Assembly: GCF_006345805.1 (NCBI RefSeq) | Contig: NC_043000.1 | Coordinates: 77,996,001 to 78,060,000, forward strand | Reading direction: 5' to 3' | Length of the DNA stretch: 64,000 nucleotides | DNA from: Octopus sinensis | Lineage: Eukaryota | In this document: piece by piece, positions 5,106-54,968 of the stretch | Numbering within the stretch: position 1 is the stretch's first letter | Layout of the letters: each line of letters opens with the position of its first letter | Notes under the pieces: model-generated | The model's database searches: none | Told to the model about the DNA's origin: nothing | The model's input: only the letters and a program-made list of their open reading frames with translations | Position numbers and translations under genes: made by a program

Positions 5106-5140
<35 letters not shown>

Positions 5141-7880: not shown

Positions 7881-8355
7881 GGGTTTTTATAACTCCTCAT
7901 ATCCGAATTTTAAGAATCGTATTTCGTGAAAGATTTCTTAGGCGAAAGTTTAGAATTCGTATATGAGTAGTAATTTTAACCAATGTGATTACCAACAATT
8001 ATCCTTGTTGGGGCAAACAACCATTACGTCATATTGCCGCCTTTTATGACTTGCTACATAAGCCCTTCACCAGAAAAATTGTCAATTTTGCGAAAAATAA
8101 TGCTAATACATATATACTTCAATTCAATGTTTGAATTAATACTTTTAGCAAGTTAAATATACAAATCTACAAAGAATTCACAAATTTACAATGTTAAAGA
8201 AATGAAAATAACCGCTCATCACGGTTTTACAATAACAATAGCGTTCTTGTAAAGTTTATCAAATTGTTCAATCAAAGTTCTCTGAAATAAAATTACAAAT
8301 CTTTTTTTTTTATAAACAAAATTTCCAGGATTATAAAAGTTCATGCGGAATATAT

Positions 8356-10590: not shown

Positions 10591-10619
10591 GTTCGTTATT
10601 GAACAGTTTAATAAATTAT

Positions 10620-11330: not shown

Positions 11331-11387
11331 GCCTTTGTTTTTTTACAGAGGAATCATAACAGCATCTCTCTCAGTTTGAGACTCCTC

Positions 11388-11535
11388 CATACATACATAC
11401 AAACATACATACATACATACATACATACATACATACATACATACATACATAATACATACATACATACATACATACATACATACATACATACATACATACA
11501 TACATACATACATACATACATACATACATACATAC
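11388..11535. repeat. (TACA)n microsatellite
   Basis: Direct reading. Confidence 0.98.
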
Positions 11536-12723
11536 GTATATGCAAAGTACATTCACGTATGCAAACATGTAGTTTAAGAGTCGGAGTATGTATTGTTTAT
11601 GTAAAGTAATGAATAAAGTCATAGAGAAGATTTCTGCATCAAATAATTTATGGCACCCACCTTCCATATTGCACTATAACTGATATTTTGGCATAAAACA
11701 CCATATACATACCATTCTGAAATTATAGAACTCTTCGGGTTTTGTTCTTTCATTCAGGGTTTCGTATCACAATGTTGGGTTTCTTCGCTCGACAAACTTT
11801 TTAAGTGAAAAATATTCCTTAAAGGTTTTCTTTACCCTAAGATATTGGTAGCAAATATGTCATCAAATTATTCTTCTAAACTCCCAAACAGTCAATGACA
11901 ATAATAAGTTTTCTTCTTTTCCTTCCATTTTTCTATATGACTCTCCGTCTACTACACACACTTATTTAGTTGGAGTTTCTCTGGGACTTCTGTTTATGCA
12001 AGATAACTGAATTAATAAATCCTGCACCATACGATTTTTCATCAAACAGATTATTTTAGTTTTTCTACGTCACGAATCAATGTTATACATGCATTCGTCA
12101 TTTCAAATTAAAAATTAATCATAACGGTAGCATTTGGAACTTGAAGGATGCTCATCAAATTTCCTTTTCAAGGACAAATTTGCTTTCGAATTAATAAATT
12201 TATATGTTGCGAGTCATTTTCATCATGTTTTTGTTTTTTCGTCCGCCAACTGAAAATGGTTGAAAATGCGAATAGTTAAATCATGAAAATTACTTTCAAA
12301 TAACCTGCACTAATTTGAATTTTACAACATATTTTGTAAAATTACACATTTACTCTGCCTTTTTAAGTGCAGAAAGTGATTAAAATTCTCATTTTCTAGC
12401 TGAGAGATGCGAACTTCAACTATTGAGAATTTCAACTTGAATGAATGCATATCACTAACAAAGTGAGGAGAGAATTTCTTTTTGTCCGGCAGTTTCAAAG
12501 TTAGATAAGTTAAATATGCCCATTGGGATTACATAAAAAGGTTTCTTTCTTCGGACAGCTCATCTACGTCATGTAGAAAATCATGAAAGGTATTTTTCAG
12601 TTTCCTATATCCACTATAATCTGTGTTCTAAAAACTCTTTGGTTAATCTATACTCAAACTTCACAATTATTAACACAATCTGCTAATGTTTTTTCACACG
12701 TTTCTTGGCTGATAATGCGACGA

Positions 12724-14011
12724 TACGAGGTGCATTCGAAAAAGTTTGAAACTTTTTAGAAGACAGTTATAACTGTCCTGGATTATTTTTATTTTAGTCT
12801 ATCTATACTATACATCTAAAAAAGCTGACCTGCCAACCTTTTACTCCAGTTTGAAGGAGGCGGATGCGAGATCACTTTGAACACACTTTACTAAACACTG
12901 CTGGTCACAGTTGACAAGTAGCATGATGCAGTAGGGAATTTCGAAGCTTGCTATGCAATAAAGTTTTGTATTGAACGAGACAAAAGCGCTACTGAGACTT
13001 ACGAAATACTCCAGACTGCTTATGGATTAACTTGTATGAGCCGAGTATGATTTTCGTTGACAAAAGAGGATCAATGGCGGTAGAGAGGAAGTGAGTTACG
13101 ATGAAAGGTATAGGAGGGAGAAGGACGTCAGAACAAAGAGCTAGTTGAGAAAATTCTCTATTTTCTGGATGAAGACCGTCTATAAAGATAATAGTATACA
13201 GTTTTGAGTTGGTGTGGCAAATGTACATGGAGTTATTCATAAAGATATGAGAAAACTTTGTGCAAAGTTATTTTCCCAAGGGTGCTGAGAGACAAATAGA
13301 AAGGAAGTTGCGTTGATGACTGCAGGAAGATGGTTGAGTTCACTACTTCTAATCCAAGAGTACTTGAGTCTCTGGAGACATATGACAAAAACTAGATCTA
13401 CAGTTATGAGTCAAAGACCAAAAGATAGAGTGCTCAATGGAACCATCCTAACTCCTCCAGACTCATGAAGGCCAAGCAAAGCAAGTCCTGTGTAAAGCTC
13501 ATGAAGATTCCTTTATCGACAGCGAGGGTATCGTCTACATCCACTGGATTCCCTCTGCCCGGGCGGTCAACAAAGAGTACTTTGTGGATATTTGAGGGAG
13601 TTCAAGAAGAGATTTCGTCACAAAAAACCAGAGGTCTTCCACTCGGCTCGATGGTATCTGTACCAGAGCAATGCACCAGTCTACAATTCCATCCCGGTAA
13701 CCAACTACTCAGCAGAGATGGGTATGAAAATTGTCCCTCACCCTCCATACAGTTCAGACTTCATTCCCTGGGACTTTTGGTTGTACCCCAAGCAGAACGA
13801 AAACTTCGGGGACGGTCGTTTTCAAGACATTGAGATGAAGAAGGCTGTGACAAAGATCCTGGACACACTCACTTTGGAGGATATCTTCTGGTTGAAGCGC
13901 TACAAGTGCATTAAAGTCAGGGAATTCTCATTTGAAGAAAATTAGTTTTGTGCTTTGAAATTGATAACTGTCTCCTGAAAACATCCCTGAAATACTGGAA
14001 TGTACCTTGTG
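12724..14011 (+). mobile_element. Full-length-sized decayed mariner (~1.3 kb)
   Basis: Termini TACGAGGTGCATTC ... GAATGTACCTTGT. Transposase remnants AIKFC, WYLYQSNAPV and HPPYSSDFIPWDFWLYPK. Confidence 0.85.
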
Positions 14012-14530
14012 TTTTAGTAGATGGTTTTCAAGCAGAGTGTCGCCTAACACTTTCATCGATCATCGACAGAGCTCTATTAGTATGAATACAGAACATTTAG
14101 CCGAAATTTACTTGTAGATTTTCTTGGATCAACATTAGTTTCTAAAACATGTCGAACCTTCTGAATTTTCTGTAAAGTTACTCAAAACTAACAAGTTCAA
14201 CAAAGACTCAAACGTGTCTTCAATAAATTCTACTCATAAAACTACTTAACAAAGCTACCGACATATTACATATATTACATAAAAGAGGAAAAGAAAAGGG
14301 TTCAAGCAATGAAAGTTACGCACTCGCCGTTGTACCCTAAGCAGACAAACTAATGACAAAATATAGTTCAACGGCGTTGAAGTGTCGGCAGCAAACTAAC
14401 AACTAAAAATTTGTGATGGACTGGGAATCAAACAAGTATTAATGTATAGAAATTTATGGACAGGTAATCATGCAATGCACCACTTTCGAGACATGCACAA
14501 TAGGTTGTTCATCCCCGCCGAACTTATATA

Positions 14531-14749
14531 TACAAAGTGGCCATAAAGTCACGCACCATCTTGCAATATGTGAAATTGCGAACATTCTCTTTCTTTATCT
14601 CTTCTCACAAGTGCCGATATTACTCACAAACCAATCCTCATTGGATGGAGGCGTTAAAACTAAACATTTGTAATGGACTACCTACTTCATTGCTAATAAA
14701 GCATACTTGATATCTCCCATGGTGCGTAAATCTGTGGTCACCCTGTAGA

Positions 14750-14789
<40 letters not shown>

Positions 14790-15041
14790 TCTACAGGGTG
14801 ACCACAGATTCACGCACCATGGGAGATATCAAGTATGCTTTATTATATATATATATTCTACAGGGTGACCACAGATTCACGCACCATGGGAGATATCAAG
14901 TATGCTTTATTAGCAATGAAGTAGGTAGTCCATTACAAATGTTTAGTTTTAACGCCTCCATCCAATGAGGATTGGTTTGTGAGTAATATCGGCACTTGTG
15001 AGAAGAGATAAAGAAAGAGAATGTTCGCAATTTCACATATT
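14531..15041. mobile_element. Tc1/mariner-type MITE (14531-14747) plus near-identical inverted copies (14789-15041)
   Basis: TIRs TACAAAGTGGCCATAAAGTCACGCACCAT / ATGGTGCGTAAATCTGTGGTCACCCTGTA. 14566-14750 is reverse-complemented at 14855-15041. Confidence 0.75.
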
Positions 15042-15744
15042 CCCTATCAATTCCACCCCACCCAACCCCATCCCTTACACCCACTCGCTCATACCCCACC
15101 TGTACCCCACCCTTGCTTCCCCACTCTCGCCTCCCCTACATCCCACCATATCACATCACACTCCCACATCGCCTCCCCTACATCCCACCATACACCACCA
15201 CACCATACACCACCATACCACACAACACCACATCACATCACACACCCACGCACACACTAGCACTGACCACTTCCTAGCTTCACACCATCATCCACACACC
15301 TACACATGCACACACGCACACGTTAAGGTCACCAGCCCTCTTCCCACGCACATACATGCCCTCTTATACACACGCACGCACCTTCGTTTTGGCATCACTA
15401 CTACTTTATTATCTCTCCTTCTTAGATCTCCTGTGTTACCCCTCTGTCCGGCATTCGTCATGATAGATCGCTAGCCACTACACATTCTTGTTTCCTTGTT
15501 TCTTTCAGTGTCCCTTTTTGTGGAAGAGCGTAGGCACGAAATGTTAAAGACTTTTTCACTTCCCGAGCATTTAACTAATACATCTGTTTGTTGTCTACAC
15601 CACCTGTCTTCGTCTTTTTTTGTGTGAATTCTCTCCCTATACATATGTGTATATATGTATATATATATATATAAATAATATATATAGATGCATATATGGG
15701 CACAGGACGTCACCAACGTTGCAAATAACATACACACGAGAGAT

Positions 15745-15850
15745 AGATACAGATAAAGTCCTCACTTTCGCAAGCGTTTTTACAGAGATTAGTGAACAAG
15801 ATAAGGATATAATCCTCCACGCTAGAAAGACCTTACTCTTCAGCGACAAC
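15745..15850 (+). mobile_element. Penelope-like RT fragment
   Basis: [33 protein letters not shown] resembles a PLE RT segment. Its last ~43 bp are inverted at 16163-16205. Confidence 0.6.
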
Positions 15851-15881
15851 ACATATATATATATGTGTGTATATATATATA

Positions 15882-15931
<50 letters not shown>

Positions 15932-15964
15932 ATCTCTATGTATATAAATGTATTTTTATATATG

Positions 15965-16000
<36 letters not shown>

Positions 16001-16061
16001 CTCTATATATATATGTATAGATATATACATGTATATATTTGCATGTATATACATATTTATG

Positions 16062-16101
<40 letters not shown>

Positions 16102-16107
16102 TATATG

Positions 16108-16152
<45 letters not shown>

Positions 16153-16200
16153 TATATATATATGTTGTCGCTGAAGAGTAAGGTCTTTCTAGCGTGGAGG

Positions 16201-16280
<80 letters not shown>

Positions 16281-16491
16281 TATATATTAAAATTTATATA
16301 GAGTAGGAAAAAATTTTTGAACTTTTTTCTGCCAGTGTCCTAGAAATGTTTTTAGCAATTTTTGAAGTCGAATCGAAATTTTTATATGCTGCTGATTGAA
16401 TCTCCGGTTGCACGGAGGATTTGAAAAATTATAATATTTAAGCATGAGACGTGTTGTTTGGTCCCAAATTTATATATTGATGTTTTCGCAT

Positions 16492-16546
16492 ATCCGCTGA
16501 TGAGAACTTTGCCTTGCGAGTTAAAGTTTGAAATCTGAGGTCGGGT
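16492..16546 (+). ncRNA. Hammerhead-ribozyme-like motif (degenerate type I)
   Basis: atccg-CTGATGA-gaacttt...aaagttt-GAAA-tctgagg-TC-gggt. Stem II is about 7 bp; stem I register is imperfect. Confidence 0.5.
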
Positions 16547-16794
16547 TGAATAACATGGTAAATGTTTTTATTTTTCATTCCATTCGAAATTGCACTGAAC
16601 TGTGGTTTGGACAGTTTGACTGTTCTTTCTAGTATGCTAGGCTCGCCTCTTTGTACTTAAATGTACAATAATTTTTATATAGGTATATAAATTCAGGGTG
16701 AGTACTTGATAATTGTAAGCACCTGTATATACCATTTGCTGGTGTAGGTGGTGGAGTAAATTAATCAAAATAAAAACATGATGCCAAGAATTCA

Positions 16795-16872
16795 GCGGTA
16801 CATATGTTTCGGGCCTTTATTAGACGGATTTATAACAATGCATAATGTGTGTCTATGGCCTTCTTCAGCCGC
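16795..16872 (-). ncRNA. Minimal type I hammerhead ribozyme
   Basis: Minus strand: GCGG-CTGAAGA-aGGCC.TAGAC...GTCTA..GGCCc-GAAAC-ATAT-GTA-CCGC. Perfect 4-bp stem I and palindromic stem III (ACATATGT). Confidence 0.8.
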
Positions 16873-17401
16873 GCACAATTACTACTTCAAGGACATGTAT
16901 TACATCATATTTCTACGTTGGGGATGCAAATCCTCTCAGTCGCGTACGACAGAGTGGGGCACCAGCACAAAAACGAAGCGTCCATCCCGTCTTTCACTCA
17001 ATGTAGAATGAGGAAGTTTGGATGTTGAGGTAATATAAATAAATAAATAAATGAATAAATAAATATATAAATACACACAGACGTGAAAGAACCTGGTAAT
17101 AAAAATAAATAGGGATAAAGGTAGAGGGGCGAGAATTAAGGACGGAAGATAAAAAAATATAAAAAGTATAAAAAATATAAAAAGATAAAAAAATATAAAC
17201 ATAGAAATATAAAATATAAAAATATAAAGAAATATAAAAAAATATAAAAAATATAAAAGGATATAAAAATATTTTTTTTAAATATATATATATATATATG
17301 TATATATATGTGTGCGTATATATTATATATATATATACGTATGTATATGTATATATGTGTGTGTATAAATATATGTATATATATATGTGTGTGTGTATAT
17401 A

Positions 17402-18845
17402 TACCTCTCATATCATCAAGGTATTTGAGAGGGTGCTGAGATCGCGTATGACTCACTTCCTTGAGAGTCATAATATGCTGAACCCCAACCAGCATGGATT
17501 CCGTAATGGGAGAGATTGCCTGACGCAGCTACTGCATCATTTTGATGACATTTTGAGAGCCTTGGGAGAGGGTTCCAACACTGATGTCATCTACCTTGAT
17601 TTCAGCAAGGCCTTTGACAGGGTTGATCATAAGATCCTTCTGAGAAAGCTGTCCAATATTGGTGTCACTGGAAAGCTGCTGCAATGGATCAAGTGCTTCC
17701 TCTCTAACAGAACCCAACATGTTGTAGTCGAGGGAGTCAAATCCAGCCCAGCCAAAGTCAGCAGTGGTGTCCCACAAGGCACTGTGTTGGGCCCACTTCT
17801 CTTCATCATCTACATAAATGATATTACTGACACCATCAAACACAGCAACATCAGAACCTTCGCTGATGATTCCAAGCTCCAGAAGGTCATCAATGGCGTG
17901 GATGACCGAATAAACCTTCAGTCAGACCTACTGGCTGTTGTCCAATGGGCGGAAAAGAATAACATGTTGCTAAATGAAGACAAATTCGAACTGATCCACT
18001 TTGGAAGGGAGGACGCTCTGAAACTCCCATACTCTCTTCCTTCTGGAGAAATTCTCATGGCATCCAACAACATCAGAGACCTGGGAGTAACAGTGGACAA
18101 CAACATAAGCTGGGCTACACATATAAGCAGCAAAGTTGACATGGCCCGCAGAATGTGTTCCTGGATTCTCAGAACCTTCCAGTCGAGAGATTCCCACGCT
18201 ATTATCCTTCTCTTCTCCACTTTTGCCCGACCCCACCTTGAATACTGCTGTCCACTGTGGTCTCCCTACACAAAACAAAATATTATGAGAATTGAAGCTC
18301 CCCAAAGGTCAATCACAAAAAAGATAGATGGCATGTCAGACCTTGACTACTGGGGTAGACTAGAGAAGCTGAAATTGTATTCACTCCAACGACGCCGTGA
18401 ACGCTACATTATCTGTATGATGTGGAAAATATTCCATCAGCACTGTCCGAATGATGTTGGCATCACCTTCAAAATGCATCCAAGGCTTGGACCACGTGCC
18501 ATCCGTCCACAACAAAAATCTAAATCGCATCACATAACGACAATACGGCACAACTATTTCACCTCATTTGGACCTGCTCTCTTCAACATTACACCAGGAC
18601 ACGTCAAAAAAGAAACTGACCACAAAAATTCAAGAAGTCTTTGGACAAATTCCTTCAAACAGTACCGGACAAACCACCCACACCCGGATATGTCTCCGCA
18701 AACAATAACTCTCTGCTCGAATGGGCCTTGGTGCCCAAATCCTGAACTGAAAGACTTCGCCAGGTGGTGCTATTAAGTTAGACATGGCCTGGGCCAATAC
18801 TGGCCAAAAACCTTTCAAAGTTATTCTAAGTTCTAAGTTATTCTA
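17402..18845 (+). mobile_element. 5'-truncated CR1-clade LINE (RT and 3' end), inserted in (TA)n
   Basis: Long open frame with NQHGFR, YLDFSKAFDRVDH, SGVPQGTVLGPLLF, FADDSK, RDLGV and RPHLEYCCPLWSP. Short-repeat tail AAGTT(ATT)CT at 18818-18845. Confidence 0.92.
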
Positions 18846-19055
18846 TATATATATACATATGTATATGTATATATATGTATATATATGTACATATATATAT
18901 ATAAATGTATATATATAGATGTATATATATATGTGTGTATATACGTATATATATATATGTGTATATATAGGTATGTGTATATATATGTATATATATATAT
19001 TTTATTTTATTTTATCTACTTCAGCTCACGAGCTGTGGCCATGCTGGGGCACCGC

Positions 19056-19121
<66 letters not shown>

Positions 19122-19200
19122 TATATATGTATATGCATATATATGTATATATGTGTGTATGTATATGTATGTATGTAATGTATGTATATATATATAGCTG

Positions 19201-19250
<50 letters not shown>

Positions 19251-19363
19251 GTATATATATAGTTAATCCAAACAAGAAAACACATATACGTATATATATA
19301 CGTATATATATATGTATATATAATATATATATAATTGAACGCGACGCATCTATTCCCAAGCAG

Positions 19364-19400
<37 letters not shown>

Positions 19401-19645
19401 ATAGTAAGTGCGTAAATTCGAAACAAGGTGGTAAACAGCACATCGAATACCAGAGGTAGAGTAATATGCTATATTAAAAAGCTGGGAAAATATCACAAAA
19501 GCTGTTACTCAGAGATTCACGTTCCCTTGAATGTCTGAGCAAAAGATTTTGTGATAGTTTTGCTGCGTTTTAATAATGTATACTTTTACGTGTGTATGTA
19601 TATATATGCATATATGTATCTATACATGTATATATATATATATAT

Positions 19646-19696
<51 letters not shown>

Positions 19697-19744
19697 GATA
19701 TATATATATATATATATATAATAAATAAAGCATATGTATATATA

Positions 19745-20640
19745 CATGCTTATATGTACGTACCTACCTCTACATGTATATATACATGCATATATACATG
19801 CATATATGGGTACAGGACACCAAAAACGTCGAACACAATGAGAAACGAAAACATAAACACAAAACCATTCTTCTTAAACAACGAAAAAATAGAGTACAGG
19901 ACATACAACACAAGGAAAATTCCCCTTCTTCAGTCGCCTCTGTTTCATCTACTACGCGTTTCGAAGGTCAAGGCGAGACACGACTTCAATGAAACATTCT
20001 TCCAGCAAAAAGCAAATTAAATAAAATTTGAGATTTTTTTGCGGAGGGGTAAAAATGGTAACAAAAAGAGGATAGTAAAGAAAGTACAAAATATAAACAG
20101 TAAAGGACAGGACAAGGAGAATAACAGTAACACAAACATTGAGAGCTGTTAAGCCAGAACGAAAGAAAAAATATTATGAACGCTTTTTGAGGACGGCAAG
20201 GGAGAGACAGGAAAGCCATCCACACTTGAAGGAAGCCAGGTCAGAAAGACAGTAGCAGAGCTCTCGTCGCGGGTCAACGACGGGAGGGAGGAGGAGGAGC
20301 AGGAGAAAGGGAGAGAAAAAAGGGAATGGCTGTAGAGAAAACCAGAAAGGATGAACAATGAGAGAGAGAGAGAGAGGGAAAGACAGTAAGGTAGAAGAAA
20401 AGGAAACCAGAAAGAATGAAGGCTGAGAAAGGGAGGGGGACAGAAAGGTTAAGAATGCGCATCATTATTAATATTAAGAACAAACTTACTTAGAAATGGA
20501 TGCGTGCGTTCCATCATATAATAAATTAATAAATAAAACATATGCATATATACATACATATATGTACGTACCTACCCCTACATGTATATATACATGCATA
20601 TATGGGTACAGGACACCAACAAAACCTCGAACACAATGAG
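19745..20640. repeat. Dispersed repeat with direct terminal duplication, possibly PLE-derived
   Basis: TATATGTACGTACCTACC...GGGTACAGGACACCAA...CGAACACAATGAGAAA occurs at ~19750-19845 and ~20560-20643. Confidence 0.5.
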
Positions 20641-20789
20641 AAATATATATATATATATGTATGTATTTATTTATTTATTTATGTGTGTGTATTTTTCTGT
20701 GTGTGTTTATAAACATGTACGTGTATCAATTAATGTTGCAAGATTCCTGATGTGAAATTGTATGTTTAAACAGATTTTGTATTTTCTTT

Positions 20790-21294
20790 TTCTTTTTTGC
20801 CAAATAAACACTCGCACTATGTATTCGTTCTTCATTTGTAAATAGTTCTTATTTTAATTCATGTCCATTGTCTAGAAATCTCTCGTCATACATCTGTGCC
20901 CTCTTCAGCGATACTTTTCACTTTCGTCTGTGCTCTTGCTCCAGTTACTCCATTCTGCCCTTCTATGACCTGCATCCTTTTAAGAAGTGAACCTTTATAT
21001 ACACACAATAACTTCACAGATGACCGCAACAATATTAACAATAGTACTAAAACGACAGCCATAGCGGTGCCAAAAAATAGTATCATCAACAACATCAACA
21101 ACAACTACAATGATGACAACACCGTGGACTAACACACAAACACAGATATATACAGGAACTGTACCAAACCTTCGGCTCCTAGGACAGCGGCAACAGAACG
21201 AGGTGAGAGGATGAGGCTGAGGGGAAGGCCATACTACTGCTAAGAACAATGACACAGACACTAGCATACATACAGACACACATACATGCACACA

Positions 21295-21340
<46 letters not shown>

Positions 21341-21580
21341 ACACACACACACACACACAAATAAAGACGCAAATACATGCGCACATAAGAATACACATCA
21401 TAGAACAGCAGAATGGAGTAAGTGGAGCAAGATCACACGAAAGCGAAGTGTTGGTGTAAAGGTCGCAGATATATGTGACGAAAGATTTCCGGACAATGGA
21501 CATGAATTAAAGCAAGAACAGTAATAAACGAGTGAAGAGAAAATATATAGTGTATGTGTTTTTATTTGGCAAAAAATGTG
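20790..21580. mobile_element. Old inverted pair of PLE pseudo-LTRs with hammerhead remnants
   Basis: 20790-20980 is the diverged reverse complement of 21385-21580. The arms contain CTGAAGAG-GGCACA..TATGAC-GAGA (20870-20914, minus) and GGTCGCA..TGTGAC-GAAA-GATTTC-CGGAC (21461-21494). The terminus resembles 41650-41690. Confidence 0.65.
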
Positions 21581-21663
21581 ACCATCCAGAAATACAATAT
21601 ATTATATATATATATAATATTATATATATATGTATGTATGTATATATATATATAATATGTATG

Positions 21664-21705
<42 letters not shown>

Positions 21706-21711
21706 CATACA

Positions 21712-21773
<62 letters not shown>

Positions 21774-21784
21774 TATAGAAGGAG

Positions 21785-21838
<54 letters not shown>

Positions 21839-21962
21839 ATTATTATATAGAATGAAACAGTTCTAGTCCTGTAGAAGCTCCTTCTATATAATAAATTAAT
21901 TTTACTCTGCTATGTATTGAGTACCTTATTTACTGTGGTTAACCCCGAATCAACCCGGGACC

Positions 21963-22024
<62 letters not shown>

Positions 22025-22139: not shown

Positions 22140-22940
22140 AAATGCCAATCTTGCGAAATTAAGCTTCATAAAATCAGAAAGGAGAAATCTGATTGGAAGA
22201 CTACAAATCCAATCCATCACTGGGACTGTAAAAATCTGTAAAACTTTCCAGAAGTTTATCATTTAAATATATATGAGTATATCAAGATATGCAACTATAT
22301 GAATGAGAACACATGCATAAAACATACAAATCTGCACATACAAACATGCATACATACATACATACATACATACATACATACATACATACATACATACATA
22401 CATACAAGGAATACTGGTGGAATGTCCCAGTGAAGACCCCAATAAAATATAAGCGCAACAGACCTGATACAATGACTTGGTATAGAGAAGAGAAACTGTG
22501 CACAGTTGTAGAAACTAACTGCCCAGCAGATGTTAACATAAAGCTGAAGATCAGTGGAAAAGAGAACAACTATACTGAACTATTGAGAAATCTGCAGTTA
22601 CACTATCCATATTATAATTCCAGGTTTATACCTGTAATTATTGGGGCCCTGGAATATGTAACACGTTGCCTAGATACCCATCTTGAGAAATTAGGCTTCT
22701 CAGAACCAGAAAGGAGAAAGCTGATTCGAAGACTGTAGATCCAATTCATTACTGGAACTGTAAAAATCTTTAAAAAACTTTCCAGAAGTTTATTTAAATA
22801 TATATGAGCCTCTCTCGATATGCAACTATATACACGAGAATACATACATAAAACATACAAATCTGCATATGCATACGTACATACATACATACATACATAC
22901 ATACATACATACATACATACATACATACATACATACATAC
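22140..22940 (+). mobile_element. Two tandem 3' fragments of R4/Dong-type RLE LINE, each bounded by (TACA)n
   Basis: KEYWWNVPV...NRPD...VVETNCPADVNI...KENNY...FIPVIIGAL (PD-(D/E)xK endonuclease). The 3' end is repeated at 22140-22350 and 22680-22880. Confidence 0.85.
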
Positions 22941-25309: not shown

Positions 25310-26005
25310 TTGGGTAGGTGCATAATTACTGCGGCTTTTTTTTCAACAAATTTTATTCAGCAAAGACATCTTTAAATGATTATTCCGGAACATATTCACC
25401 ATCTACTTCAATTACTGCTTCCTATTTGCTAGGCAGACGGTCAGATCGTTATTTAAAGTTGTTTAAAACAATCCACGCAGGCAGAGAGTGAAAATAACGA
25501 AAATCAATAAAAAAAAGTTGTTTTTGTTAAATATTGTTATTGTTTTTTTTAATAGAATTTGTTGAAAAACAGCCGCAATAACTATGCACCAACCCAATAT
25601 ATATATAAGTTATAAGATGTATAAAAACATGTAAGATACAAATAAATATCTGTAAATATAAAACCATCCGAATTTCTGAGTACCCCATTTCTTCTAATAT
25701 AAAATATCTGTACATCATCTCCAAAACTTCTAATATATATATATACATTATAATTAGGGTTCAGCAAAGATTTGCTTTACCACATACCGAAGTTTAGAAA
25801 TAGCAGCCAAAAAACCTTAGCTATTTCTTCTACTTTAAAAAGGGACTCCCAGAAAAACCAAAATACTTGAAAATAATCCACGCAGGCAGAGAGGGAAAAT
25901 AACGAAAATCAATCAAAAAAGTTGTTTTTGTTAAATATTGTTATTGTTTTTATTGAATAGAATTTGTTGAAAAACAGCCGCAATAACAATGCACCAACCC
26001 AATAT
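25310..26005. mobile_element. Mariner-derived MITE ends mixed with HHR-family pLTR pieces and locally duplicated
   Basis: TIR TATTGGGTAGGTGCATAATTACTGCGGC (25310) pairs with GCCGCAATAACTATGCACCAACCCAATA at ~25598 and ~26004. 25467-25600 is repeated at 25872-26005. Confidence 0.65.
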
Positions 26006-26067
26006 ATTTTATTTTGCTTAACATGATACGAATAAAATAGGCATCCATAACTAAGTCTCTGTTTTGT

Positions 26068-26461
26068 TATATATATATAAAGCTGAAGTTGTCTTTGTAT
26101 GACTGGTTTTGTAGCCTTCAACTAGCACTATCTCCCCCGAGACCCTGAGGCGCAAGTTGACCAAAATTGAGAGCATGGTACAAGAAGGCTGGCTCTTCCT
26201 TCCGTAGAAGAAAAAATTCAAATCGGACCATGTTAACAACAAAAATTATTTACATCAAAATGTGCTTTTTTTTCTCTGAAAGTCCTTATTTTTTACGATT
26301 TTTGACTGCTGTGTCGCCATTTTTCAGTGTATTTCAAACAGAACAATGTTCACTTAAAGAGAGTAACAAACTACATAATGCATAATTTTACTTTTCAAAA
26401 ATTCCAATTCTAAAGGGTCGAAAATAAAACAAGCCCGAGCAACGCTGGGCTATACTGCTAA
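26068..26461 (+). mobile_element. Non-autonomous Helitron (~390 bp)
   Basis: Homologous to 31022-31409; subterminal hairpin CCCGAGCAACGCTGGG and CTAA end. Confidence 0.7.
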
Positions 26462-27333
26462 CACTCCCTTCAGATACACACACACACGCGCGCGCGCACA
26501 CACACGCGCGCGCGCGCGCACACACACACACACACACATTCTCTCTCTCATTTTCTCCCCATTCATCACCCTATTGTACTATTTTATATCCCTCCCCGCT
26601 ACTACACACTCAATAGCACTATAAAATGGTCAAATTCTCTTCCCCAAGATCTTAGACCCCCCCCCTGGAGTAAACATCCTGACCAACTACAAAAGAAACA
26701 AGCAAAACAATTTTTTCTTCTTTCCTCTCTCCCTTTTCTCTCTTCCCCTCTTTTTCTTTAACAACCCTTCCAAATACAAAAACACACACACGCACACACA
26801 CGCACACGCACACACACACACACACACACACATGTTCTCTCTCTCTCTCTCACTTTCTCCCCATTCATCACCCTGTTGTACTATCTTATATCCCTCCCCA
26901 CCACTACACACTCAATAACACGATAAAATGGTCAAAACCTTTTCACAGGAACTTAGTTCGCTTTGAAAACCCCACTAGAATGGGAGAAAGCGCTAATATA
27001 TGATATATGATATAAGTTATAGGATGTATAAAAACATGTAAGATACAAATAAATATCTGTAAATATAAAACCATCCGAATTTCTGAGTACCCCATTTCTT
27101 CTAATATAAAATATCTGTACATCATCTCCAAAACTTCTAATATATATATATACTTTATAATTAGGGTTCAGCAAAGATTTGCTTTACCACATACCGAAGT
27201 TTAGAAATAGCAGCCAAAAAACCTTAGCTATTTCTTCTACTTTAAAAAGGGACTCCCAGAAAAACCAAAATACTTGAAAACAATCCACGCAGGCAGAGAG
27301 GGAAAATAACGAAAATCAATCAATATCTGGTCA

Positions 27334-27416
27334 CCCATGTACGCGCGTTTCGGATTTAGATCGGTATAAAGAATATAGAATTATACTTTACCAACCATTT
27401 TCTTCATCAGCATGGG
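27334..27416 (-). ncRNA. Minimal type I hammerhead ribozyme
   Basis: Minus strand: CCCATG-CTGATGA-a...cc-GAAAC-GCGC-GTA-CATGGG. Perfect 6-bp stem I, intact core and palindromic stem III. Confidence 0.85.
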
Positions 27417-27794
27417 ACTTCGGTATGTGGTAAAGCAAATCTTTTCTGAACCCTAATTATAAAGTATTATTTAAGTTTACCGTGAAATGGTCCTTTTTCA
27501 TGCCGAATTCTAGTTGGTGAAATTATTGATTACTTCTTAATTAATTAATTTTACCCTTTGTTATTATTGATAATAGAGTTTTCTCCCTGATAACAAACTA
27601 CAGATTTTTTCTGTAGTATTTTACTTGACGACACACGCGGATGGGCAGGGGGAGATGATGAACCTCATTCATATTTTAAATTCGGCGGTATTAACACTGA
27701 ATATAATCTGTCTGATACCGTTAGGTGGAGAGATATGTTCAATTATTCCAGTACCATCGAATTTAATATTTTTAATATTTGATATTGTTGGAGT

Positions 27795-27877
27795 CCCATG
27801 CTGATGAAGAAAATGGTTGGTAAAGTATCATTCTATATTCTTTATACCGATCTAATTTCGAAACGCGCGTACTTGGG
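27795..27877 (+). ncRNA. Minimal type I hammerhead ribozyme
   Basis: CCCATG-CTGATGA-aGAAA...TTTC-GAAAC-GCGC-GTA-CTTGGG, with one mismatch in stem I. Confidence 0.83.
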
Positions 27878-28159
27878 TGATCAGATATTGATTGATTTTC
27901 GTTATTTTTCCTCTCTGCCTGCGTGGATTATTTTAAAATATTTTGGTTTTTCTGGGAGTCCCTTTTTAAAGTAGAAGAAATAGCTAAGGTTTTTTGGCTG
28001 CTATTTCTAAACTTCGGTATGTGGTAAATTAAATCTTTGCTGAACCCTAATTATAAAGTATTACTTAAGTTTAACCGTGAAATGGTCCTTTTTCATGCCG
28101 AATTCTACTTGGTGAAATTATTGATTACTTCTTAATTAATTAATTTTACCCTTTGTTAT

Positions 28160-28204
<45 letters not shown>

Positions 28205-28325: not shown

Positions 28326-28991
28326 TAATTAATATCTTAGGGTAGCAAGAATGTTCATCGAAAAATTCTTAGTTACCAGTGGTCTAGCGAGAAAGAAAAA
28401 ATTAGTCAATAGACTATATATTATTCAGAGAAGAATACAGTGTACGTTCAAACACAAAAGAGATACTTTCGGAATTGCAACAATTGGTGGCTTGGAGTTT
28501 TAACTGCTCTTTCTAGCGAGTCAGATATCCTATTCTTCAGGTATCTATTTTGTGTTCGAACGTACACTGTATTCTTCTCTGAATAATATATAGTCTATTG
28601 ACTAATTTTTTCTTTCTCGCTAGACCACTGGTAACTAAGAATTTTTCGATGAATATTCTTGTTACCCTAAGATTTTAATTAATGATAAGATGTTTTTTGG
28701 CTAATTCTGGAAGAAAATCGGCAATTTATAATTAGTGCTGGTTGAGTTCTGCTTCTACGCGGTAAATTCGAAAAATTAGAACCTATAGTCACGTGGCAGG
28801 TTATTTATCGCTTCGTGCCTATATGTTCAGTCCTGGTAAACTACTGAAGAAGCAGCGTCAGATATAGACTGAAATTATTTTATTTCAGTCTGTATTTAAG
28901 TCTGCAGAAACCTTGCAGGATCTAGGATTAAGGTAAAAGTTTTTATTTTCCAATCACTTTCGGAATTACAACAATTGGTGGCTCGGAGTTT

Positions 28992-31021: not shown

Positions 31022-31409
31022 TCTATATATATAAAGCTGAAGTTGTCTGTGTGTGACAGGTTTGTAGCCTTCAACTAATACTATCGCCTTCGAGACCCTG
31101 CAGCGCAAGGTGACCAAAATTGAGAGTATGATATAAGAAGGCTTGCTCTTCATTATGTAGAAGATAAAATTCAAATCGGACCACGTTAACACCAAAAATT
31201 ATTTACATCAAAAAGGTGCTTTTTTTCTATGAAAATCTTTATTTTTTACGATTTTTGATTGCTGTGTCACCATTTTTCGGTGTATTTCAACTGGAAAAAT
31301 GTTCACTTGAAGAGAATAACAAGTTGCATAATGCAAAACTTTTACTTTTCAAATATTTTAATTCTAAAGGGTCGAAACAAACCCAAGCAACACCGGGTGA
31401 TACTGCTAG
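31022..31409 (+). mobile_element. Non-autonomous Helitron
   Basis: A|TC start, subterminal hairpin CCCAAGCAACACCGGG and CTAG|T end. Confidence 0.8.
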
Positions 31410-31457
31410 TATATATAATATATATATATATATATAATATATATATATATATATACT

Positions 31458-32066
31458 TTCAACAATATTAAGGAATGGCCTTGATAGGCCATTCGATCCA
31501 CTAGAAAGAGCAGCTAAACTCAAACCGCTAAATAGTTGTAATTCAGAAACCAAAGGAAAATAAAAACATTTACCCTTATCATCTTTGGACTATGCATAGT
31601 TTCGACATACATATTGTGAAACCGATTTAATTAAATTAAATTTAATTTATTTGCCACTGGCTTGTCTCATCAGCAAGGAAGCCAGGGAAATATATATCCA
31701 CGAGACAACAGCATCGACGCCTCGAGAATATATATTCTAAATTTTCAAAATCTACCGTCACCGCGCCAACTTCTCGGCAGCAAATATAAACTGCTGATTT
31801 AATTTCGGAATTAGCCAAAAAATCATTAATTAATCAATATCAGGGTAGCAAAAAATTCAAGAGAAATTATTTCGCTACCAGCGGTCCAGTGAGAAAGAAA
31901 AAGTAGTCAACAGACTATATAATATACATTCAACAATATTAAGGAATGGCCTTGATAGGCCATTCGACCCACTAGAAAGAGCAGCTAAACTCAAACCACT
32001 AAATAGTTGTAATTCAGAAATCAAAGGAAAACAAAAACATTTACCCTTATCATCTTTGGACTGCAT
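31458..32066 (-). mobile_element. HHR-bearing element (family B): ~471-bp unit as a 1.3-mer tandem
   Basis: 31458-31597 is repeated at 31929-32066. Homologous to 54341-54805 and 28465-28996. Confidence 0.8.
31583..31678 (-). ncRNA. Type I hammerhead ribozyme with intact core
   Basis: Minus strand: ccTTG-CTGATGA-GACA...TGTC-GAAAC-TATGCATA-GTC-CAAag. Palindromic stem III ACTATGCATAGT. Confidence 0.85.
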
Positions 32067-32565
32067 GTATGTATGTATGTATACATATATATATGTACAT
32101 GTTATCAACCGCACATATTCAATGTATGTGTTTTGCTTGTTTGCAGGTTCGCTGCGGTAAAGTGCCTCAAGAACGGCTCCCTCATTGCATGAGTGTTAAA
32201 ACACCTGGAAGTTATCGACAGGCGAGATAACTCACCCCAGATCCCATTTAGACGTGATGGATACCGATATTTAGCTTTTTACACTAATTTATATTGTCAT
32301 GGAGTTCCAATTCATGTCATCTCTGGTTCGATTCAGGTACATGACATGATAAGCTACAAAAATGGTGAAATATCGGTATACATCTGGAACGAGTTGTCTC
32401 ACATGTCTATGGCTTTCAGGTATTTTAATATCCAGTACAATGAGGGAATCGTCCATGAGGCGCTTTACCGCAACGAACCGGTAAACAAAGCATATACATT
32501 GAGTGTGTGCCATTGACAATGGTTACTACAATAGCGCTGCTTTGAATTCGTTACTGAAAATATAC

Positions 32566-35738: not shown

Positions 35739-36632
<894 letters not shown>

Positions 36633-41496: not shown

Positions 41497-41513
41497 ATAT
41501 ATACCTATATATA

Positions 41514-41601
<88 letters not shown>

Positions 41602-41737
41602 TTATATATATATATATATCGTTATATTTCGGAATGGTCATTTTGCCAGTTTAGCCAATAAAAACACACGCACTATATATTTGGTGTTATTTTGCTTCAG
41701 TGTTATTTATTTTTTACATTAATCTTAATCTTATTTC

Positions 41738-41782
41738 GGCCAGAGTTCTTTCGTCACACTCCTGTGACCGCATCAGTGGTCC
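41738..41782 (-). ncRNA. Hammerhead-like motif in PLE pLTR (variant core CUGAUGCG)
   Basis: Minus strand: GGACCA-CTGATGCG-GTCACA ggag TGTGAC-GAAA-GAAC-TC-TGGCC. Confidence 0.65.
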
Positions 41783-42149
41783 TTTGTTTTCTTCTTTCTT
41801 ATTTGTGTCTCTCCTTACTAACCGTCAGCCATTTTGTATTTCTATTGTATGTCTTCATTTGCGCATGCTTATATCTCTATGTGCGTTTATGTTTATTTAG
41901 TGTGTGTATGTGGGGGATGCCTGTAATATTTGGATCTTCTGTTTATATATGTTCATGTAATTTGTATTTTGTTTTTGTTGTTTTTGTTTATTCTTATTTT
42001 GTTCATGTGTTCACATCCACTAATTATTATCATTACATATGCTTGTATGTATAACAACAATACTATTAATAATAATAATAATCGAATCGAAAAAAAAAAT
42101 ATATATATATAAAAATATCTACATATATATATATAGATAGATATATATC

Positions 42150-42237
<88 letters not shown>

Positions 42238-42312
42238 GCACATATATATAGCTATTTATTTCTATTAGTTTATTTATCTGTGTATTTATTATGTTTTCAG
42301 GATCCTCTATTG

Positions 42313-42790
42313 TCATATGTTGTGGTGTGTGTTAGTGCTCCATTCTAGTTTTCTATTCAGGCTAGGTTTATTTTCTATTATGTGTGTAGCTTCTGTAATT
42401 TGTCTAATTGTTGCATCTGATCTATGTGTGGATAATATTTTAATTTCTATGTTATTGATTGATCCCCCGTGTTCTTGTTCGGCATGTTGGTACAGAATCG
42501 ATGTGCTTTTATCTTCCTTGAGTTGTCTCCAATGCCCATTTACCCGCTCTCCTATGCTTCTTGCCGTTTCCCCTACGTATGTCGTTGTCTTGTTACTGCA
42601 TCGTCCCTCTATACATCTTATACTATAGACTACATTTCTGGCTTTACAGTTTGTTTGTGGGCTAAATCTACATACAGTACAGTACTTATCCGTACAGGGG
42701 GTTCTACTAAAAGGATAGGTTCTACCAATTATAGATTTGATAGGGTTGCCTGGCTTTTCAACAACCTTAATTCTTAGCTTAATTTTGTCT
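42313..42790 (-). pseudogene. GIY-YIG endonuclease domain of PLE (open in the inverted arm)
   Basis: CTDKYCTVC, NVVYSIRC, YVGET, R..E..H and EA..I...PSLN motifs. The sense-arm copy has a stop at 43308-43310 and a 4-bp deletion. Confidence 0.88.
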
Positions 42791-43809
42791 GAATGAAGGA
42801 TTTGGGTTTTATTATTCACAATTTCTAGCCAGAGTTCGGTGTCTAGTACTATGCCAAACCAATGGCCTCAAAATACTTGACCACCGGAACTCAGCCATTG
42901 CGGACAATGCCAAATTCAATATCTTGATGGCAGACCTCGTCAGAATAATGAGAAACGTGTCACGCATGTGCGAGCCTACAGAGTTAAAGAGACACATACA
43001 ATATTTCATTCACCGCATGCAGTTCTCAGGTTACAGCCATAAAGAAAGGATCAGAGTATACAAAGGAGCCATTAAGAAATTTGATAATATATTATGTAAT
43101 GATAGGAATGGGATTTGCCCACTCTATAGGAACAAGTCATGGAACACTATAGAAAGGACAAAAAAGAAAATAGGGAAGGCCAACTCTTGGTATGATAGCC
43201 ATAAATACCAGAGTGTCATGTTCGTTGACACCACCCCTGGAGGTGAACTGGCGTACCGCTTTAGAAGGACCCTAGACAAAATTAAGCTAAGAATTGAGGT
43301 TGTTGAATAGTCAGGCAACCCTATCAAATCTATAATTGGTAGAACCTATCCTTTTAGTAGAACCCCCTGTACGGATAAGTACTGTACTGTATGTAGATTT
43401 AGCCCACAAACTGTAAAGCCAGAAATGTAGTCTATAGTATAAGATGTACAGAGGGATGATGCAGTAACAAGACAACGACATACGTAGGGGAAACGGCAAG
43501 AAGCATAGGAGAGCGGGTAAATGGGCATTGGAGACAACTCAAGGAAGGTAAAAGCACATCGATTCTGTACCAACATGTCGAACAGGAACACGGGGGATCA
43601 ATCAATAACATAGAAATTAAAATATTATCCACACATAGATCAGATGCAGCAATTAGACAAATTACAGAAGCTACACACATAATAGAAAATAAACCTAGCC
43701 TGAATAGAAAACTAGAATGGAGCACCAACACACACCACAACATATGACAATAGAGGATCCTGAAAACATAATAAATACACAGAAAAATAAACTAATAGAA
43801 ATAAATAGC

Positions 43810-43867
<58 letters not shown>

Positions 43868-44235
43868 AGATATATATCTATATATATATATGTAGATATT
43901 TTTTTAATTTATATATATATATATTTGTTTTCGATTCGATTTATTATTATTATTAATAGTATTGTTGTTATACATACAAGCATATGTAATGATAATAATA
44001 AGTGGATGTAAACACATGAACAAAATAAAAATAAACAAAAACAACAAAAACAAAATACAAATTACATGAACATATATAAACAGAAGATCCAAATATTACA
44101 GGCATCCCCCACATACACACACTAAATATACATAAACGCAGAGATATAAGCATGCGCAAATGAAGACATACAATAGAAATACAAAATGGCTGACGGTTAG
44201 TAAGGAGAGACACAAATAAGAAAGAAGAAAACAAA

Positions 44236-44279
44236 GGACCACTGATGCGGTCACAGGAGTGTGACGAAAGAACTCTGCC
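44236..44279 (+). ncRNA. Hammerhead-like motif in PLE pLTR (second copy)
   Basis: GGACCA-CTGATGCG-GTCACA ggag TGTGAC-GAAA-GAAC-TC-TGCC. Confidence 0.62.
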
Positions 44280-44460
44280 GAAATAAGATTAAGATTAATG
44301 TAAAAAATAAATAACACTGAAGCAAAATAACACCAAATATATAGTGCGTGTGTTTTTATTGGCTAAACTGGCAAAATGACCATTCCGAAACATAACAATA
44401 TCTGTTTCAACACACGACTTCACATAAAAAATCTTGCACAACAAATATTTAAACGTATAT

Positions 44461-44522
<62 letters not shown>

Positions 44523-54119: not shown

Positions 54120-54968
54120 CTTTTGTTCTTTTAATTGTTTCAGTCATTTGACTGTGGCCATTCTGGAGCACTGCCTTTTAGTCGAAGTCTAAAGTCTTTA
54201 TAAGTCTGGTGCTTACTCTATCGGTCTCTTATGCCGAACCGCTAAGTTACGGGGACGTAAACACACCAACATCAGTTGTCAATTGATGGGGAGTGAGGAC
54301 AAACACAGACACAAGCACACACATAAATAAATATATACTCTCAGAATTACAACTATTAGTGGTTTGGAGTTTAGCTGCTCTTTCTAGTGAGTCGGATGTT
54401 CTATTATAGCCATCCCTTATATGTTTGAATGTATATTATATAGTCTATTGACTATTTTTCTCTTTCTCACTTGACCGCTGGTAGCGGAGAATTTTTCTAA
54501 AATTTTTTGCTACCCTAAAATTTATTAATTAATGATTTTTTTGGCTAATTTTGAAATTAAATCGGCAGTTTATTTACTGCTGAGTAAACCGCGTGAATGC
54601 GGTGAATTTTGAAAATTTATAGCATATAGACTCGAGGCATGCTCGTTATCGCCTTGGCTTTTCTGATGATGAGTGCAACACCAGTGGTAAATAAATTTTA
54701 TTTTATTTTATTTATTTACATAAGATTGCCGAAACTATGCATAGTCCAGAAAGGAAAGGGTAAACGTTTTTATTTCTCTTTCCATTTCAGAATTACAACT
54801 ATTATTAAATAAATATATACATATATTCGACGGGCTTCTTTCAGTTGCCGTCAACCAAATCTACTCACGACGCTTTGGTCGGCCTGAGGCTATTGTAGAA
54901 GACACTTGCCCAAGGTGCCACACTGTGAGAGTGAACCCGGAATAATGTGGCTGGGAAGCAAGCTTCTT
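54120..54968 (-). mobile_element. SINE hosting two nested insertions (family B HHR unit and HAL1-like element); resumes at 56998-57033
   Basis: SINE 3' half at 54120-54320 and 5' half at 54828-54968, continuing as GAAGCAAGCTTCTTACCACACAGC at 56998. Confidence 0.75.
54341..54805 (+). mobile_element. HHR-bearing element (family B): ~446-bp unit with short terminal repeat
   Basis: TCAGAATTACAACTATTA at 54341 and 54787. HHR 54660-54752: TTTCTG-ATGATGA-GtGCAA...TTGCC-GAAAC-TATGCATA-GTC-CAGAAA (C3 mutated). Confidence 0.75.

What the first reader, a model, noticed from the sequence alone, without database searches (positions are those of the whole stretch)
31458..32066. Family B 1.3-mer whose 5' end falls almost at the ribozyme cleavage site
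Seen: a 471-bp period with an intact HHR (31583-31678, minus, GUC site). The upstream partial repeat starts at 32062-32066, inside stem III and only a few nt 5' of the second GUC. The three family-B copies (28465, 31458, 54341) do not all start and stop at the same point of the unit, and each has a terminal redundancy. Inference: reverse transcription of a circular or tandem, ribozyme-processed RNA template, as proposed for retrozymes.
Basis: partly seen in the sequence, partly recalled or inferred. Interest (0 to 1): 0.72.

Follow-up and report, generated by a model that had tools for sequence, protein, structure and literature searches.

The report
Penelope-copied retrozyme with ribozyme-cut footprint
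This is one worn copy of a protein-free 471-base repeat found hundreds of times in this animal genome, carrying a predicted self-cutting RNA; across the family the copies tend to begin just after the predicted cut, a likely sign that the RNA cuts itself before a Penelope-type enzyme likely pastes it in, which makes it a new member of a known class.

Summary
Confirmed with corrections. 31458-32062 (minus) is a 1.3-mer of a 471-nt non-coding unit with a type I hammerhead whose helices covary across the family. In this copy the core is intact but the helices are decayed, and its 5' end lies 4 nt upstream of the cut, so alone it proves little. The family test does support the idea. In 166 genomic loci, 254 of 271 arms end 3' at two fixed sites, mostly in (TA)n, and 82 of 84 canonical head-to-head pairs use one of each, a Penelope-like signature. 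5' ends are 3.4-fold enriched in the 25 nt after the predicted cut; the step falls at the cut and recurs on the second lap. Yet 122 of 185 arms cross the junction, usually without a scar. So templates include both cut-ended linear RNAs longer than one unit and continuous junctions. A circle is likely but unproven; no usable RNA data were found. Two autonomous Hydra-like Penelope families share the anatomy; the exact helper is unidentified. New member of the animal non-LTR retrozymes; the scan noted this kind before on other DNA.

The parts
31458..32062 (-). Whole insertion: 1.3 units (unit 468-471, 1-471, 1-130; unit 1 = first base after the predicted cut), single arm, 3' end at site A
31929..32062 (-). 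5' partial repeat (terminal redundancy), 130 of 134 nt identical to 31458-31591
32058..32062 (-). 5' end: AGUC plus the first base after the second predicted cut (32059|32058); the copy stops 4 nt beyond the cut
31573..31687 (-). Type I hammerhead: stem I with internal loop, core CUGAUGA (31673-31667), long stem II, GAAA (31603-31600), palindromic stem III (31599-31590). Core intact, helices weakened in this copy
31587..31590 (-). GUC triplet and predicted cleavage site (31588|31587), crossed without a scar
31457..31465 (-). Fixed 3' end A (unit about 125-131), the inferred reverse-transcription start used by this copy
31829..31837 (-). Fixed 3' end B of the family (unit about 222-230), internal in this copy
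31410..31455 (.). (TA)n at the 3' junction, the inferred target; no target-site duplication can be read
32063..32098 (.). TATG/TA microsatellite at the 5' junction
54341..54803 (+). Diverged sister copy (77-79%), unit 41 to 57, hammerhead core altered
28334..28991 (+). Copy of a more distant sister family: inverted arm 28334-28437 ending near site B, joined head-to-head to a + arm 28467-28991 with its own type I hammerhead
16349..16633 (+). Old, decayed relative (67-73%) with a hammerhead-like core at 16497-16542

Best explanation
This is a copy of a non-coding 471-nt repeat with a predicted self-cleaving type I hammerhead, likely inserted into (TA)n by the enzyme of a Penelope-like element (probably Hydra clade) that likely starts copying at two fixed internal sites, on a likely mixed pool of ribozyme-cut linear RNAs and continuous, probably circularised or ligated RNAs. 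Shown in DNA: two fixed 3' ends about 100 nt apart, head-to-head A+B arm pairs that share private variants, excess 5' ends right after the cut on the first and second lap, scar-free crossing of the junction. Inferred: the helper nicks both strands of (TA)n and each end primes on the same RNA (or on RNAs of the same source), one at A and one at B. Synthesis runs toward the RNA 5' end and stops at random or runs off at a cut end, losing 0-40 nt on joining. Where the junction is uncut or ligated it carries on and gives more than one unit. Occasional copying of a circular or ligated monomer would reset the tandem units to identity. The window copy is an A-primed single arm that crossed one junction and stopped 4 nt past the second; with its decayed helices it is probably a dead end.
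For: Ends: 254 of 271 arms in 166 loci end at A (132) or B (122); 241 of these 254 show TA repeats at the junction by a lenient test. Head-to-head pairs: 82 AB, 1 AA, 1 BB, 13 with one other end; 72 loci without inversion. Partial tandems, an inverted 5'-truncated copy, a tail at one end only and (TA)n targets are the described marks of Penelope-like elements (PMC8557442 passages). Two internal start sites and extension of both strands were shown in vitro for an Anolis element (PMC11167929, parts 1-2). Paired arms share derived variants (0.010, 0.029, 0.076 per site in three samples) above shuffled partners (0.0006, 0.010, 0.030). Cut footprint: hazard ratio 3.4 for unit 1-25 (p 2e-13), seen in each sample (3.6, 3.4, 2.8); 51 ends in unit 1-20 against 12 in 452-471 (p 2e-5). 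One end per insertion gives 3.3 (38 of 154). The likelihood change point lies at unit 471/1. 9 ends fall at 471/1/2 against 1.7 expected, and 12 of 26 second-lap ends fall in 1-25. Ribozyme: 94.4% of 958 cells paired and 41 double-change cells in stems I, II, III across 39 copies; stem III occurs as three palindromes. Continuity: 135 of 141 junction crossings keep their length. The two laps of 26 redundant arms differ by 3.2%, like paired arms (3.2-3.3%), while copies in the two older samples differ by 7.6-11.5%. The unit folds at z -4.7. Two autonomous families with Hydra motifs have a type I hammerhead, two fixed 3' ends in (TA)n and AB pairs (12 of 12; 4 of 4).
Against: No cleavage, transcription or circle was observed. 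This copy's 5' end is upstream of the cut. The 5' excess is spread over 40 nt, is weaker in non-inverted ends (13 of 74, ratio 2.2, p 0.013; not significant for unit 1-40, p 0.20), and stop rates elsewhere track local RNA structure (rho -0.44, p 0.03), so stalling at stem I may add to it. The windows 1-25 and 1-40 were chosen after seeing the data; only the scan test corrects for that. The second-lap peak is not expected from a monomer circle already covered by first-lap cDNA (inference). Sequence similarity to the Hydra-like families is marginal (6-157 of 300 shuffles reach the score), they gave no Pfam hit, and no tree was built. In one sample the best shuffle (0.0296) exceeded the observed shared-variant rate (0.0288), and gene conversion between arms could also make them alike. 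In the Anolis element ribozyme cleavage was not needed for insertion in vitro. Two of five measures did not beat the shuffles, and its rows are related.
Confidence: 0.72

Rival explanations
1. Linear only: templates are partly cut transcripts of rare source loci that hold two hammerheads; no circle or ligation is involved.
For: The second-lap peak (12 of 26 ends in unit 1-25) is what an RNA cut at its first ribozyme but not its second gives. 3 of 239 arms hold two complete hammerheads and could be sources. No arm longer than about 2.4 units was seen in the fetched loci. Uncut RNA was the main substrate of the Anolis element in vitro.
Against: Without a monomer-to-multimer step the units of a source should drift apart. 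The two laps instead differ no more than paired arms (3.2%) and show almost no recurrent differences (7 seen twice among 121, 3 of them in one poorly aligned patch), although copies in the older samples differ by 7.6-11.5%.
Confidence: 0.14
2. The ribozyme does not cut in the cell. The 5' pile-up reflects the enzyme stalling or folding back at stem I and the hairpin at unit 8-37, and longer copies arise as ordinary Penelope partial tandems.
For: Ends are spread over unit 1-40; the excess is stronger at inverted junctions (ratios 3.6-4.6) than at direct ends (2.2). Stop rate correlates with local folding energy. Eight of nine Xenopus retrozymes did not cleave in vitro (bioRxiv 10.64898/2026.07.22.740005).
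Against: The step sits at the scissile bond (471/1), with 9 ends at 471/1/2 against 1.7 expected. Unit 452-471, which holds stem III, shows only background. The most stable local window (ending at 361-380) has a background stop rate. Core nucleotides are conserved and helices covary.
Confidence: 0.09
3. RNA is a cut linear monomer and the enzyme jumps from its 5' end to a 3' end, making junctions without any covalent circle; inverted arms come from fold-back of one cDNA.
For: Would give peaks at both laps, with a higher stop rate on the second (3.6 against 1.35 per 100 nt in unit 1-20) and identical laps. Self-priming has been proposed for Penelope inversions (PMC3846280 passages).
Against: Junctions are clean: 2 indel events in 864 nt around the cut, 135 of 141 unchanged in length. 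Fold-back does not explain why the second arm ends at the other fixed site in 82 of 84 pairs, with either arm the longer (A 44, B 33, tie 3 of 80).
Confidence: 0.05

Closest known systems
Metazoan non-LTR retrozymes (Cervera and de la Pena 2020, PMC7229834: term passages and parts 2-4 of 6 read; Li, Clavereau and Pollet 2026, bioRxiv 10.64898/2026.07.22.740005: parts 1-3 of 5 read; supplements of neither seen)
   Same: Non-coding, low-GC repeat with one type I hammerhead per unit, short palindromic stem III, stable predicted fold, more-than-unit copies, no LTR; Penelope-like elements proposed as helpers.
   Different: Unit of 471 nt is longer than the 150-450 bp (coral 220-245, mussel 350-390, axolotl 330-350) given there. 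It occurs as dispersed truncated and head-to-head copies, not as long arrays in the loci fetched. Cleavage and circles were shown there and are untested here. The parts read do not map insertion ends.
Penelope-like elements, Hydra clade (Craig et al. 2021, PMC8557442: term passages read)
   Same: Partial tandems, inverted 5'-truncated arm, tail at one end only, (TA)n target, canonical hammerhead. Two autonomous families in this genome carry RWK/RWL, DKT, CxxC and CxH motifs and the same end anatomy.
   Different: The element has no ORF; the tail is about 100 nt against the 30-40 bp described; clear sequence homology to any autonomous family examined was not found.
Poseidon element of Anolis carolinensis (Frangieh et al. 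2024, PMC11167929: parts 1-2 of 4 read)
   Same: Two internal reverse-transcription starts downstream of a hammerhead, both target strands extended, AT-rich target.
   Different: Autonomous; cleavage was dispensable in vitro and no RNA ends were seen at the cut, whereas this family's 5' ends mark the predicted cut.
Hammerheads of Penelope pseudo-LTRs (Cervera and de la Pena 2014, PMC4209133: term passages read)
   Same: Palindromic helix III suited to dimeric folding; circular template proposed for more-than-unit copies.
   Different: This motif is full-sized, with 6-bp helix I, distal helix and long helix II, not the minimal form.

Membership tests
Type I hammerhead ribozyme | Core CUGANGA, GAAA, NUH in type I order with three helices | tested here: met
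   Sequence; 94.4% paired, double changes in stems I, II, III. Some subfamilies carry CCGAUGA.
Type I hammerhead ribozyme | Match to a curated Rfam hammerhead model | tested here: not met
   No match at gathering score or at E up to 10; the long stem II may be the cause (inference).
Type I hammerhead ribozyme | Self-cleavage at the NUH | not testable with these tools
   Indirect only: step in 5' ends at the predicted bond.
Non-LTR retrozyme | Short non-coding unit with one type I hammerhead, no LTR | tested here: met
   471-nt unit; no ORF of 120 aa or more overlaps it.
Non-LTR retrozyme | Tandem copies with two consecutive complete hammerheads | tested here: met
   Rare: 3 of 239 arms. Not met by the window copy, which has one.
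Non-LTR retrozyme | Many dispersed copies, signs of retrotransposition | tested here: met
   407 matches to a 27-mer with up to 2 mismatches, 0 for the control; fixed 3' and variable 5' ends.
Non-LTR retrozyme | Expressed as monomeric linear and circular RNA | tested here: inconclusive
   Only assembled contigs of guessed RNA runs were available; these cannot show ends or circles.
Non-autonomous Penelope-like element | Partial tandem, inverted 5'-truncated arm, tail at one end only | tested here: met
   82 AB of 84 canonical head-to-head pairs; 254 of 271 arms end at two sites.
Non-autonomous Penelope-like element | Microsatellite (TA)n target | tested here: met
   241 of 254 A or B ends, lenient test.
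Non-autonomous Penelope-like element | Terminal sequence shared with an autonomous partner | tested here: inconclusive
   About 160 GIY-YIG or Penelope loci compared; best is 75% over 44 nt, plus a 9-nt motif 77-80 nt after the A motif (78 here), picked after the fact; shuffle support marginal.
Hydra clade (candidate helpers L417, L459) | RWK, DKT, CxxC and CxH motifs, C-terminal nuclease, hammerhead, (TA)n | tested here: met
   Motifs from PMC8557442 found (L417 has RWL); hammerheads read by eye; no Pfam hit.
Hydra clade (candidate helpers L417, L459) | Placement in the reverse-transcriptase tree | not tested
   No reference sequences on hand.

The most novel reading that the evidence does not exclude
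The family's multimers are made at the RNA level. Cut monomers are ligated into dimers and circles, or circles are copied RNA-to-RNA into multimers, and a Hydra-type enzyme primes twice on one such RNA. Each insertion would then record an animal retrozyme RNA cycle in vivo: identical laps within a copy, diverse lineages between copies, cut ends at both laps. The 471-nt unit would be the first retrozyme tied to the Hydra clade.
Probability: 0.2. Interest if true: 0.72.

Novelty: new member of a known kind. Interest (0 to 1): 0.42.

Why it matters
Whether hammerheads of Penelope-type elements cut in vivo, and whether retrozymes are copied from circles by Penelope enzymes, are open points in the papers read (PMC8557442 calls the function unclear; PMC11167929 found cleavage dispensable in vitro; PMC7229834 proposes the partnership). 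This family gives a counted genomic footprint of cutting at the predicted bond on both laps, and shows that cut linear templates longer than one unit must exist beside any circle. It also supplies two candidate helper proteins with long open frames for a direct test. The class, the proposed helper type and the two-start mechanism are known or already proposed, and the scan has noted several sister cases, so the gain is incremental. I found no paper mapping retrozyme insertion ends in five searches, which cover only the held open library.

Tried and rejected
RNA evidence: no RNA holder listed. Four guessed-RNA contig sets were laid; contigs cannot show ends, strand or circles, and the cut junction also exists in DNA, so nothing is concluded. 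Rfam gave no hammerhead match. Fixed colinear ends are rejected for the 5' end and true for the 3' end. Free circular permutation is rejected, because 3' ends are fixed. A local satellite or unequal crossing-over origin is rejected: copies are dispersed over at least 25 large contigs and none fetched exceeded about 2.4 units; unassembled arrays are not excluded. Microhomology to AT-rich target as the cause of the 5' peak is not supported (hazard against AT content rho 0.05). Search for the autonomous parent: GIY-YIG loci, the window's own Penelope family and two Hydra-like families gave no clear homology; each search scores only the top 150 of 5,000-22,000 candidates. An intron idea (GT at unit 15, AG at unit 173 in older subfamilies) gave no long frame after splicing and is left as a lead. 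In one search the period step of the script failed, so only end positions counted from the cut are usable: that sister family ends mostly near +140-158 and +251, while its window copy ends at +69. Sampling limits: all 79 places, but only the first 70 fetched loci of the 160 places and the first 50 of the 125 places, taken in coordinate order. Dropped before counting: overlapping or duplicate loci (193 to 166), a sister-family insert in L013, extra local duplicates in L034 and L086, and arms without an A or B end or not reaching unit 95. Loci found by best score or by the ribozyme motif were kept out of the end statistics unless they also held the anchor.

Full report
Observation. The minus strand of 31458-32062 holds 1.3 copies of a 471-nt unit; the two redundant parts match at 130 of 134 nt. 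I number the unit from the first base after the predicted cut. The copy runs from unit 468 through one whole unit to unit 130 and ends in (TA)n at 31410-31455. The hammerhead is type I, with core at 31673-31667, GAAA at 31603-31600, a palindromic stem III and GUC at 31590-31588. Rfam does not report it. No ORF of 120 aa or more overlaps the element. The window lies in a 2.72-Gb assembly with 30 large contigs.

Ribozyme. In 39 copies the proposed helices are paired in 94.4% of 958 cells, with 41 double-change cells (0 of 500 shuffles) in stems I, II and III, against 34-42% pairing when partners are slid. Two of five measures did not beat the shuffles, and the rows are related. Stem III occurs as three different palindromes. 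This copy has private substitutions: its hammerhead fold scores -11.8 kcal/mol against -33.4 for the family majority, and a competing hairpin buries the core. It is probably a poor ribozyme (inference). The whole unit folds better than all 100 shuffles (z -4.7).

Family sample. A 27-mer from the unit has 407 genomic matches at up to 2 mismatches and the ribozyme 19-mer has 216 exact matches, each with 0 for the control. To avoid bias on 5' extent I anchored three samples at unit 95-125: all 79 places, and the first places in coordinate order. After removing overlaps, 60, 64 and 42 loci remained.

3' ends. 254 of 271 arms end at site A (unit about 125-131) or site B (about 222-230), nearly always in TA repeats. 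Over half of the loci are head-to-head pairs: 82 AB, 1 AA, 1 BB, 13 with one other end; 72 loci have no inversion. Either arm can be the longer. Paired arms share derived variants far above shuffled partners and differ by 3.2-3.3% in all three samples, whereas shuffled partners differ by 3.7, 7.6 and 11.5%. Partial tandems, an inverted arm, a tail at one end and (TA)n targets are the described marks of Penelope-like elements (PMC8557442). Two internal starts with extension of both strands were shown in vitro for one of them (PMC11167929). The simplest reading is priming from both target ends, one at A and one at B, on one RNA or one source; conversion between arms is not excluded.

5' ends, the finding's test. 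Among 239 arms that pass unit 95, 61 end in unit 1-25 (hazard ratio 3.4, p 2e-13; 3.6, 3.4 and 2.8 by sample). The stop rate drops across the cut: 51 ends in 3363 nt at risk for unit 1-20 against 12 in 2728 for 452-471. A scan over all 40-nt windows picks the one starting at unit 470, and 0 of 2000 constant-hazard simulations reach it. With one end per insertion the ratio is 3.3 (38 of 154); non-inverted ends alone give 2.2 (13 of 74, p 0.013) and lose significance for unit 1-40. The likeliest change point is unit 471/1, with 466 to 1 within two log units. Nine ends fall at 471, 1 or 2 against 1.7 expected, and on the second lap 12 of 26 ends fall in 1-25 (ratio 5.4, p 6e-5). Against a pure cut reading, the excess is spread over 40 nt and stop rates correlate with local folding (rho -0.44). 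The window copy itself stops 4 nt past the second cut, so it belongs to the cluster only loosely.

Continuity. 122 of 185 arms that reach unit 40 cross the first cut, and 8 of 19 cross the second. 135 of 141 crossings keep their length, which fits a covalent junction better than an error-prone jump. The two laps of 26 redundant arms differ at 121 of 3777 sites (3.2%), the same as paired arms, with almost no recurrent differences. So laps were near-identical at insertion in lineages that differ by up to 11.5%, which asks for a step that rebuilds a tandem from one monomer; a circle or ligation does this (inference). Only 3 of 239 arms carry two whole hammerheads. A monomer circle alone does not explain the second-lap peak, since its RNA would be paired with first-lap cDNA (inference). 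Partly cut transcripts, or ligated dimers such as those seen in vitro with RtcB (PMC7229834), would.

Helper. The genome holds several Penelope-like families with long open frames. Two have the Hydra motifs listed in PMC8557442 (RWK or RWL, DKT, CxxC, CxH), a type I hammerhead read by eye, two fixed 3' ends in (TA)n and only AB pairs (12 of 12 in 39 loci; 4 of 4 in 41). Their A ends resemble ours, and one family has the same 9-nt motif 77-80 nt further on (78 here), but this was noticed after the fact and shuffle support is marginal. Neither gave a Pfam hit. The helper clade is therefore a probable lead, not a result.

RNA. No run on record as RNA was listed, and the contigs laid cannot show ends or circles. 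No conclusion is drawn.

Comparison. It works like a non-autonomous Penelope-like element and meets the testable DNA criteria of an animal non-LTR retrozyme (PMC7229834; bioRxiv 10.64898/2026.07.22.740005); cleavage and circular RNA are untested. Supplements of these papers were not seen and may list related families. Earlier notes of this scan describe the same kind in other windows and genomes; none matched this sequence or place. My two-site reading predated them (stated; counts), and one note prompted the helper search. The term 'twin priming' and its L1 precedent are recalled, not read.

Verdict. Observation confirmed with corrections; interpretation partly supported. New member of a known kind, interest 0.42. 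The useful addition is a counted footprint of cutting at the predicted bond on both laps, alongside scar-free read-through.

Noticed in passing
window 27003-28163: A different hammerhead-bearing repeat as head-to-head arms, with type I cores near 27380 (minus) and 27800 (plus); related pieces at 25462-26007. It abuts the (TA)n next to the 28334 copy.
   Followed up: no
window 41504-44522: Penelope-like fragment with GIY-YIG-like C-terminus (42313-42867 minus), 1.3-kb inverted arms between (TA)n; large family with open frames up to 914 aa. No homology to the retrozyme.
   Followed up: partly
window 31886-32044 (minus; unit 15-173): Intron-like signals: GTAAAT donor after an ATG at unit 6, branch-like TTGAC, pyrimidine tract and CACTAG acceptor in older subfamilies (CACTGG here). 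May be a relic of a Penelope 5' intron; site A would lie inside it.
   Followed up: partly
unit 181-220 in the family (window about 31839-31878): A second, smaller cluster of 5' ends (19 of 239; 1.49 and 0.70 per 100 nt) just upstream of site B, at a hairpin; could be stalling or collision with the B-primed enzyme.
   Followed up: no
L459 3446-3800; L420 and L417 terminal repeats: Two Hydra-like autonomous families: cut-to-A 36 and 67 nt, A-to-B 73 and 150 nt, tails longer than the 30-40 bp described.
   Followed up: partly
L310 (minus, near 586); fragment in L113: Another Penelope family (775-aa frame) with a type I hammerhead upstream of its ORF; a piece is joined to a retrozyme copy in L113.
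   Followed up: no
L013 and L325 (G000:C1 about 96.81 Mb): This family and the 28334-type sister family sit side by side in one (TA)n locus.
   Followed up: no
window 238-4682 and 8356-10207: Broken LTR-retrotransposon-like gag-pol frames; listed only.
   Followed up: no
window 17238-18776 (+): 512-aa stop-free frame, most of it like a LINE reverse transcriptase; LINE-like C-terminal pieces also at 35946-36491 and 22307-22738; mariner-like pieces at 6972-7358 and 13505-13945 (names recalled from motifs).
   Followed up: no
window 31024-31408 and 26070-26460: An unrelated 390-nt repeat (85% identical pair) lies just beyond the (TA)n at the 3' junction; it had the highest depth in the contig sets laid.
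   Followed up: no
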